Assembly: GCA_951406725.2 (NCBI GenBank)
Contig: OX597827.1
Span: forward strand, 71,796,001 to 71,860,000
DNA from: Octopus vulgaris
Lineage: Eukaryota
Direction of reading: 5' to 3'
DNA length: 64,000 nt
Part shown: positions 8,163 to 46,566 of the stretch, piece after piece
Layout of the letters: each line of letters opens with the position of its first letter
How positions within the stretch are numbered: the first letter of the stretch is position 1
Position numbers and translations under genes: made by a program
The notes under the pieces: model-generated
Told to the model about the DNA's origin: nothing
The model's input: the letters and a program-made list of their open reading frames with translations, nothing else
The model's database searches: none

Positions 8163-8489
8163 AATGAGGTAATCAGATCAGATGGTTCATATTTGTAGAT
8201 ATTTATTTATATATTACATTTTTTACATATATATCATATCATTCAGATCATATCATTCGGATTTCGGATTAGCGCTTTCTCCCAATCTAGTGGGCTTTTC
8301 AAATCGTTTTGAAAAGCCCACTAGATTGGGAGAAAGCGCTAATCCGAAATCCGAATGATATGATCTGAATGATATGATATATATGTAAAAAATGTAATAT
8401 ATAAATAAATATCTACAAATATGAGCCATCTGATCTGATTACCTCATTTTTTCTAATATATAATACCTGTACATCATCTCCAAACCTTC

Positions 8490-20639: not shown

Positions 20640-22178
<1,539 letters not shown>

Positions 22179-45204: not shown

Positions 45205-45628
45205 CTCACACATATATGTGTGTATATCTATATATGTACGTATGTGTGTCTGTGTGCGTGTCCCGGTGTGTGTGTATGTATTTATACATATATTCGCACA
45301 CAGCATGACTTAAGGCTGTTTCCAACAAACATTGGTGACGCCAAGCTTGGGAATAAAAACAGACGACCATTAGTGTACACCCGCGCGCGTACACACACAC
45401 ACATACACACACACACAAGCACACACACACAAGCACACACACACAAGCACACACACACACGCGCGCACGCTTAACCATAACAAGCAACAAACTGATGCGC
45501 AAATAAACAACATATTTTTAAAAGATGATTTAGGGTTCTCTCTCTCACTCTCTCTCTCTCTCTTCCCAACAACATTCTTGGCGCCAATTGAACTTCTGAG
45601 GACTGAGACTGATTCGATTCAGATAAAT

Positions 45629-45668
<40 letters not shown>

Positions 45669-45752
45669 ACATACACACACACATACACCACAACACACGG
45701 GCATACATGTATGTGCGTATATATCAATATCAATACATACATATATATATAT

Positions 45753-46045
45753 ACTCTTTTACTCTTTGGTTTCAGTCATTTGACTGTGGCCATGCTGGAG
45801 CACCGCCTTTAGTCGAGCAATTCGACCCCAGGATTTTTCTTTGTAAGCCTAGTACTTATTCTATCGGTGTCTTTTGCCGAACCGCTACGGGTTTCTTTCA
45901 GTTTCCGTCTACCAAATCCACTCACAAGGCTTTAGACGGCCCGAGGCTATAGTAGAAGACACTTGGCCAAGGTGCCATACAGCGGGACTGAACCTGGAAC
46001 CATGTGGTTGGTAAGCAAGCTACTTACCTCACAGTCACTCCTACT
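45753..46045 (-). mobile_element. SINE family A lacking the central microsatellite segment
   Basis: Family match with an internal deletion. Confidence 0.8.
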
Positions 46046-46046
46046 A

Positions 46047-46089
<43 letters not shown>

Positions 46090-46096
46090 GAAGGAG

Positions 46097-46143
46097 CTTC
46101 TACAGGACTAGAACTGTTTCATTCAAGAGAAATCTTCAGGAAG
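46097..46143 (-). ncRNA. Type I hammerhead ribozyme (left arm copy)
   Basis: CUUC-CUGAAGA-UUUC-UCUU-GAAU-GAAA-CAG-UUCUAGUC-CUG-UA-GAAG. Confidence 0.7.
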
Positions 46144-46243
46144 AAAATATGTTGTTTATTTGCGCATCAGTTTGTTGCTTGTTATGGTTAAGCGTGCGCG
46201 CGTGTGTGTGTGTGCTTGTGTGTGTGTGCTTGTGTGTGTGTGC

Positions 46244-46287
<44 letters not shown>

Positions 46288-46328
46288 AGTGTGTGTGTAT
46301 GTGTGTGTGTGTACACTAATGGTCGTCT

Positions 46329-46377
46329 GCTTCCTGAAGATTTCTCTTGAATGAAACAGTTCTAGCCCTGTAGAAGC
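46329..46377 (+). ncRNA. Type I hammerhead ribozyme (right arm copy)
   Basis: GCUUC-CUGAAGA-UUUC-UCUU-GAAU-GAAA-CAG-UUCUAGCC-CUG-UA-GAAGC. Stem II is weak. Confidence 0.72.
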
Positions 46378-46461
46378 TCCTTCTATATAATAAATTAATT
46401 TTACTCTGCTATGTATTGAGTACCTTATTTACTGTGGTTAACCCCGAATCAACCCGGGACC

Positions 46462-46545
<84 letters not shown>

Positions 46546-46566
46546 CATATATATATGTATATGTAT

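What the first reader, a model, noticed from the sequence alone, without database searches (positions are those of the whole stretch)
45360..46463. Two divergent hammerheads bracket an inverted copy of DNA from about 630 bp upstream
Seen: both arms start at the same base (CTTC of stem I, 4 nt before CUGAAGA) and point outward. The 186-nt spacer 46144-46329 is the reverse complement of 45360-45518 and differs mainly in CA-repeat length. Inference: the gap between two cDNA ends was bridged by templated synthesis from the local locus (DNA or nascent pre-mRNA). A transcript of either strand would have one ribozyme next to the captured segment, and the capture creates a long-range intronic duplex.
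Basis: partly seen in the sequence, partly recalled or inferred. Interest (0 to 1): 0.85.

Follow-up and report, generated by a model that had tools for sequence, protein, structure and literature searches.

The report
Retrotransposon junction patched with nearby DNA
A jumping gene sits here as two back-to-back ribozyme-like ends with a copy of DNA from about 625 bases away between them; nine other copies of the same element also hold copies of their own neighbourhood, likely patches made while the insertion was being sealed.

Summary
Two hammerhead-like arms (46082-46143 minus, 46330-46465 plus) start at the same base and enclose a 186-nt inverted copy of 45360-45518, found nowhere else in the genome. 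The arms are the ends of an abundant Penelope-like retrotransposon with Hydra-clade motifs: 7,926 arm hits, 1,256 head-to-head pairs, a 5.2-kb RT + GIY-YIG partner. Head-to-head pairing is therefore routine; only the spacer is unusual. It recurs: nine other loci hold 42-244-nt copies of DNA 0.2-4.3 kb away, in both orientations; two hold DNA from other chromosomes; eight hold the element's own ORF or leader. Many arm ends carry an extra non-genomic G before AG|CTTCC, suggesting the shared start is the RNA's 5' end. Best reading: two target-primed cDNAs meet and are occasionally bridged by templated synthesis from nearby DNA. Not shown: which polymerase, DNA versus RNA template, ribozyme activity, or any host intron. 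No function is indicated. Local templated patches are known for LINE-1; I found no report for Penelope-like elements.

The parts
45360..45518 (+). Source segment, single-copy host DNA with CA repeats; still intact, so it was copied, not moved
46050..46081 (.). Left half of the (TA)n target site; no target-site duplication can be read
46082..46143 (-). Left, tail-less pLTR arm with type I hammerhead-like motif (core starts at 46139 on minus)
46144..46329 (-). 186-nt spacer, inverted templated copy of 45360-45518; 0 nt microhomology at the left junction, 1 nt (G) at the right
46330..46395 (+). Right pLTR arm with type I hammerhead-like motif (core 46334; predicted GUA cleavage after 46372)
46396..46465 (+). 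About 70-nt 'tail' present on one arm only; in the full element it is followed 44 nt later by the ORF start
46466..46560 (.). Right half of the (TA)n target site
45766..46045 (.). High-copy SINE-like repeat between source and insertion; bystander
   Evidence: very high depth; SINE label recalled, from no call

Best explanation
This is a head-to-head pair of truncated ends of a Penelope-like retrotransposon with a copy of nearby host DNA between them, likely laid down while the insertion was being sealed. Inferred steps: (1) the element's endonuclease cuts a (TA)n run and both target strands prime reverse transcription, from two start sites about 70 nt apart (tail and tail-less arm); (2) both cDNAs run to the 5' end of a short template RNA that begins at AGCUUC, the 5' strand of hammerhead helix I, and often gain an extra C (cap-templated or non-templated); (3) the two identical 3' tails usually join at the AGCU palindrome or another short microhomology; (4) in roughly 1-2% of events one tail first primes on DNA near the break, here 625 nt upstream, copies about 160 nt with slippage in the CA tract, and is then end-joined to the other tail. 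The polymerase (element RT or a host end-joining polymerase such as Pol theta) is undetermined. The product is most likely a neutral scar.
For: Family: 7,926 exact arm hits; 1,256 loci with both arm starts within 400 nt (first 50 listed, counted by hand: 21 perfect joins, 20 fillers of 1-40 nt, 9 arms extended into the UTR). Partner element: 5,193-bp tandem unit with RT and GIY-YIG motifs directly downstream of the arm. Independent cDNAs: in L066/L067 one arm has the tail, the other has UTR the first lacks, so neither is a fold-back copy of the other. Local copies at 10 loci including this one, 42-244 nt, 93-100% identical, 3 inverted and 7 direct, 9 of 10 within 1.6 kb; 9 of 10 have no comparable hit in 84-86 other 10-kb loci. 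Timing at insertion: 8 fillers come from the ORF or leader beyond the RT start sites (L065, L112, L118, L134, L136, L138, L141, L236), with no local copy for L065 in about 40 kb; foreign fillers abut untrimmed ends (L129, L137, L148) or keep the central C and G on both sides (L108, L113), which a cut perfect palindrome would not give. Extra G: 971 arms; 0 of 92 UTR-extended arms have G there; 19 of 21 informative ends in the list. Both strands are cut and extended from two RT start sites in vitro (PMC11167929).
Against: At this locus the arms end exactly on the axis of the commonest perfect palindrome, so timing cannot be read here. L174 has a local copy inside an arm rather than at the junction, which fits later break repair. 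Two host fillers come from other chromosomes, so proximity is not required. Priming microhomology here is 0-1 nt. Many extra-G cases can also be read as a base of the opposite arm (about 16 of 30), and the 59 of 76 figure is inflated by how loci were chosen. L137 fails the specificity control because it is mostly (GAA)n. Reads did not confirm the assembly here.
Confidence: 0.6

Rival explanations
1. The element first inserted as the common perfect palindrome; later the palindrome broke at its axis (hairpin or cruciform cutting) and host repair filled the break with a templated copy of nearby DNA.
For: Both arms here stop on the axis with no loss; perfect palindromes are 21 of the first 50 loci; L174 shows a local copy away from the junction; templated and inverted insertions at ordinary breaks are known (PMC11724301 abstract; PMC2895639 passages).
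Against: ORF-derived fillers and fillers next to untrimmed or doubly extended ends at other loci need free cDNA ends.
Confidence: 0.22
2. The element's RT jumped from the 5' end of its own RNA onto a nascent host transcript crossing the site, so the template was RNA.
For: The RT evidently jumps onto other parts of its own RNA at this junction (ORF-derived fillers); two fillers from other chromosomes contain SINE-like sequence that could be transcribed. Either arm can be the one extended, so orientation cannot exclude it.
Against: No host exon found in about 84 kb; sources cluster within 1.6 kb on both sides, more like exposed DNA near a break than a long pre-mRNA; no spliced filler seen.
Confidence: 0.13
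3. The spacer is an assembly or read chimera.
For: Palindromes and microsatellites are hard to assemble; no contig spanned the locus in four runs.
Against: Spacer and source differ in a structured way; nine other loci show the same pattern at 93-100% identity, that is of different ages; one such locus was later tandemly duplicated with its filler.
Confidence: 0.05

Closest known systems
Hydra-clade Penelope-like elements (Craig et al. 2021, PMC8557442; passages and section 11 read)
   Same: C-terminal GIY-YIG, RWx, DKT, CxCX5C, CxxC and CxH motifs, (TA)n target, hammerhead in the pLTR, inverted 5'-truncated copy, one-sided tail.
   Different: Unit is 5.2 kb with a 2.9-kb microsatellite-rich UTR (described as <3 kb); tail about 70 nt (30-40 described for PLEs); thousands of tiny head-to-head pairs; host-DNA fillers not described in what I read.
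Minimal hammerheads of metazoan PLEs (Cervera and De la Pena 2014, PMC4209133; parts 1-2 of 4 read)
   Same: Type I motif in the pLTR with a palindromic loop 3; dual motifs about 100-700 bp apart on opposite strands already noted in Schistosoma; in D. virilis an intron ends at the 5' end of helix I, and here a YAG sits at that place.
   Different: Here U-U replaces G10.1-C11.1 and helix III has 3-4 bp; the paper does not trace what lies between opposite-strand pairs.
Host DNA between pLTRs in Adineta vaga Penelope (Arkhipova et al. 2013, PMC3846280; parts 1-3 of 5 read)
   Same: Unrelated host sequence between pLTRs; microhomology-mediated 5' junctions; inverted pLTRs.
   Different: There the captured DNA lies between direct pLTRs or was moved from elsewhere; a copy of the insertion site's own neighbourhood is not reported.
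LINE-1 twin priming and locally templated insertions (PMC11702581, passages read)
   Same: [quoted passage not shown]
   Different: L1's two cDNAs cover adjacent parts of one RNA; here both cover the same ribozyme region, giving a palindrome, and the events are fixed in a germline genome.
Templated insertions of theta-mediated or alternative end joining (PMC2895639 passages; PMC11724301 abstract)
   Same: Short microhomology, iterated short copies of the ends, local inverted copies and distant inserts.
   Different: Those local copies are mostly tens of nt from beside the break; here 42-244 nt from 0.2-4.3 kb. The enzyme was not tested.

Membership tests
Penelope-like elements (EN+) | RT followed by GIY-YIG endonuclease, linked to the arm | tested here: met
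   L151, L089-L091: ORF starts 44 nt after the arm; LYRDD and YIG motifs. Pfam and PDB gave no RT hit; BLASTP to another PLE ORF E 5e-4; Atlas neighbours carry HTH_animal and RVT_1. The ORF is in two frames in most copies seen.
Penelope-like elements (EN+) | pLTRs in tandem and inverted arrangement, optional tail | tested here: met
   5,193-bp tandem in L151, inverted pLTRs in L077-L082, tail on one arm.
Hydra clade | RWK-like, DKT, CxCX5C, CxxC and CxH motifs; GxKF/Y not conserved | tested here: met
   RWR, DKT, CNCHDKTTC, CDLC, CMH present, GxKF/Y absent.
Hydra clade | (TA)n targeting | tested here: met
   130 of 151 tail ends run into a TA repeat, 8 into the ORF leader, 13 other.
Hydra clade | Short element (<3 kb, 'generally') | tested here: not met
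   Unit 5,193 bp; a tendency in the paper, not a strict definition.
Hydra clade | Phylogenetic placement of RT | not tested
   No reference Hydra sequences were in hand.
Type I hammerhead ribozyme | Conserved core and three helices | tested here: met
   In 206 arms core positions are >=98% fixed while N7 (65%) and loop 2 vary (helix I columns were anchors); fold -5.7 versus MFE -6.9 kcal/mol.
Type I hammerhead ribozyme | G10.1-C11.1 pair; Rfam model match | tested here: not met
   U-U in 206 of 206; no hammerhead hit at E<=10.
Type I hammerhead ribozyme | Self-cleavage | not testable with these tools
   Needs an in vitro assay.
Non-LTR retrozyme | Head-to-tail tandem units each with a hammerhead | tested here: not met
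   This locus is a head-to-head pair; definition from 10.64898/2026.07.22.740005, part 1 of 5 read.
Theta-mediated end joining product | Dependence on Pol theta | not testable with these tools
   Only the junction signature is compatible.

The most novel reading that the evidence does not exclude
The Penelope-like RT itself finishes insertion by jumping from the capped 5' end of a short RNA that starts at hammerhead helix I onto whatever template is at hand: its own ORF RNA, DNA within a few kb of the cut, or sequence from other chromosomes. This one family then records thousands of natural end-joining events that explain how inverted pLTRs form, and it is a steady source of local inverted duplications able to make long double-stranded RNA beside a ribozyme.
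Probability: 0.3. Interest if true: 0.72.

Novelty: new variant of a known kind. Interest (0 to 1): 0.5.

Why it matters
How Penelope-like elements make their inverted ends is an open question named in the field (PMC8557442, PMC11167929). This family offers over a thousand young junctions with a fixed stop point, an extra-G signature and traceable fillers, so two-ended priming, the RNA's 5' end and the joining step become testable from genome data alone. It also shows a route by which these elements duplicate 40-250 nt of neighbouring DNA, sometimes inverted. The single locus in the window is most likely a by-product with no function.

Tried and rejected
Spacer as dispersed repeat or constant family part: rejected. 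The 899-aa ORF in L084 as the partner element: rejected; other long copies share its UTR only up to an inverted junction and carry a different ORF. One cDNA folding back to make the second arm: rejected as the general route by L066/L067, not excluded here. Splicing as the reason for the shared start: the YAG fits a 3' splice site, but no common upstream exon precedes GAG in 30 of 30 loci and no donor-like site in the UTR ends in AG; the window's source has no GT at the junction. Host gene: Pfam scan of 110 of 163 repeat-poor window frames and 14 of 18 flank frames gave only transposon domains or hits under the cut-off; small exons could be missed. Rfam: only microsatellite-driven miRNA noise in the 150 of 277 rows shown, no hammerhead. 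Contigs of four runs laid on 45250-46520 were swamped by repeats and none spanned the locus, so the assembly is unchecked by reads. Empty sites: no relatives of G000 are held. Fillers left untraced: L113, L200, L209, L210, L107; L146 has only a 28-nt, 93% hit in repeat-like DNA. Earlier findings: three look-ups returned nothing.

Full report
Observation. The spacer 46144-46329 is the reverse complement of 45360-45518. Its non-repetitive ends match 57/57 and 21/21; the middle has a longer CA tract and lacks a short CG-rich block lying between two GTACAC repeats. A genome search found this DNA only at source and spacer. Both arms start at CTTC before CUGAAGA and point outward; the left is about 62 nt, the right 136 nt, and both run into (TA)n. 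The genome has 2.8 Gb in 227 contigs; from recalled SINE motifs it is probably an octopus, which no call confirms.

The arms are ends of a Penelope-like element. A 28-nt arm pattern has 7,926 exact hits, control 0, and 1,256 loci have both arm starts head to head within 400 nt. Of the first 50 listed I counted by hand 21 perfect joins, 20 with 1-40-nt fillers and 9 with arms extended into the UTR. The full element is a 5,193-bp tandem unit (L151): arm, 44-nt leader, ORF with RT and C-terminal GIY-YIG motifs, 2.9-kb microsatellite-rich UTR. It has the Hydra-clade motifs listed by Craig et al.: RWR, DKT, CxCX5C, CxxC, CxH, no GxKF/Y, and 130 of 151 tail ends meet a TA repeat. Pfam and PDB did not recognise the RT; BLASTP against another PLE ORF gave E 5e-4 and Atlas neighbours carry HTH_animal and RVT_1. 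So divergent hammerhead pairs are the default here, and such pairs 100-700 bp apart were already noted in Schistosoma.

The hammerhead. In 206 arms the core is at least 98% fixed while N7 and loop 2 vary, as expected under selection on the ribozyme; all 206 have U-U in place of G10.1-C11.1. Rfam gives no hit. The fold is marginal, -5.7 kcal/mol, against -104 for the arm-arm duplex and -294 for source-spacer. RNA of the insertion alone folds as an arm-arm hairpin that hides the ribozyme; RNA that includes the source folds as the source-spacer duplex in a nested model. Neither matters unless the region is transcribed, and no host exon was found in 124 frames scanned from about 84 kb.

The spacer is unusual but recurrent. 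Targeted patterns gave 10, 25 and 22 rows with non-standard junctions, and 234 loci have long spacers. Tracing fillers in 10-40 kb of flank found local copies at nine other loci: L137 (inverted, 355 nt away), L192 (inverted, 289), L148 (direct, 311), L150 (370), L191 (656), C1:74.01 Mb (1,503), L125 (1,515), L108 (4,330) and L174 (223; inside an arm, not at the junction); lengths 42-244 nt, identity 93-100%, junction microhomology 0-8 nt, sources intact. For 9 of these 10 loci, window included, no hit reached 80% of the cognate score in 84-86 other 10-kb loci; L137, mostly (GAA)n, failed. L013 has a further 23-nt local copy, not put through the control. Two fillers come from other chromosomes (L129 from C26, 164/166; L069 from C2), eight from the element's own ORF or leader, five stayed untraced. 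In the unbiased first 50 of the 234 loci, 6 loci (5 events) hold local copies; extrapolated, about 28 loci or 1-2% of pairs.

Why both arms start at one base. Arms that continue into the UTR have T, C or A before AG|CTTCC, never G (0 of 92), yet 971 arms have G there, as do 19 of 21 informative ends in the list, and nothing common lies upstream of it in 30 of 30 loci. I infer that the template RNA begins at AGCUUC, the 5' strand of helix I, and that run-off cDNAs gain a C from the cap or by non-templated or snap-back addition; an extra cap G is invoked for L1. About half of these cases can also be read as a base of the other arm, so this is likely, not shown. The site also looks like a 3' splice site, as in D. 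virilis Penelope, but no upstream exon appears.

Mechanism. An anole PLE protein cuts AT-rich DNA on both strands and extends both from two RT start sites that define the tail. That fits tail and tail-less arms here, and L066/L067 show the arms are independent cDNAs. Two identical 3' tails can pair only at short palindromes or microhomologies, which is what the junctions show. ORF-derived fillers and fillers beside untrimmed ends place filler synthesis at insertion for the family. For this locus I give 0.6 to bridging from nearby DNA at insertion, 0.22 to later repair of a broken palindrome, 0.13 to a nascent RNA template and 0.05 to misassembly; contigs of four runs did not settle the last.

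Novelty. Inverted pLTRs, host DNA between pLTRs and locally templated DNA in L1 insertions are known. Paper searches (listings seen; 57 and 77 for analogues) turned up no report of local templated copies at Penelope-like junctions; the library lacks most subscription journals and Repbase, and supplements of PMC8557442 and PMC11702581 were not seen. PMC12016303 was searched and has no passage on templated inserts. Verdict: a real new variant of a known kind, useful as a window on PLE integration, with no sign of function. Interest 0.5.

Noticed in passing
window 22693 (+), 40790 (+), 18848 (-): Three more hammerhead-like motifs of other sequence families; the first lies near RT and GIY-YIG fragments at 20756-21925 on minus, probably another Penelope-like element.
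   Followed up: no
window 8170-8440: A near-perfect palindrome about 270 nt long with almost no spacer, possibly another fold-back insertion.
   Followed up: no
L151 5814-5853 (minus), also L081, L088-L091: The element's ORF changes frame at the same place between RT and endonuclease in all these copies but reads on in L002: a shared lesion, an assembly effect or a programmed frameshift.
   Followed up: no
L084 4752-7090 (minus): A different PLE ORF with a Neptune-like cysteine linker (label recalled) sits between long inverted pLTRs of this family, joined at an inverted junction: nested insertion or mobilisation in trans.
   Followed up: partly
G000 C3:65480934 and C3:65484646 (L108, L110): A 3.7-kb tandem duplication that includes the element with its captured filler.
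   Followed up: partly
L118, L134, L136, L010: Junctions holding whole extra arm-plus-tail units with leader sequence, that is mini-tandems and three-arm forms.
   Followed up: partly
L174 (C1:51312628): A 54-59-nt local copy replaces a G-rich stretch inside one arm, perhaps repair at a G-quadruplex-prone site (inference).
   Followed up: partly
G000 C31:2674265-2677437, C3:71784647-71785430: SINE-like sequence in tandem arrays with a 184-nt period.
   Followed up: no
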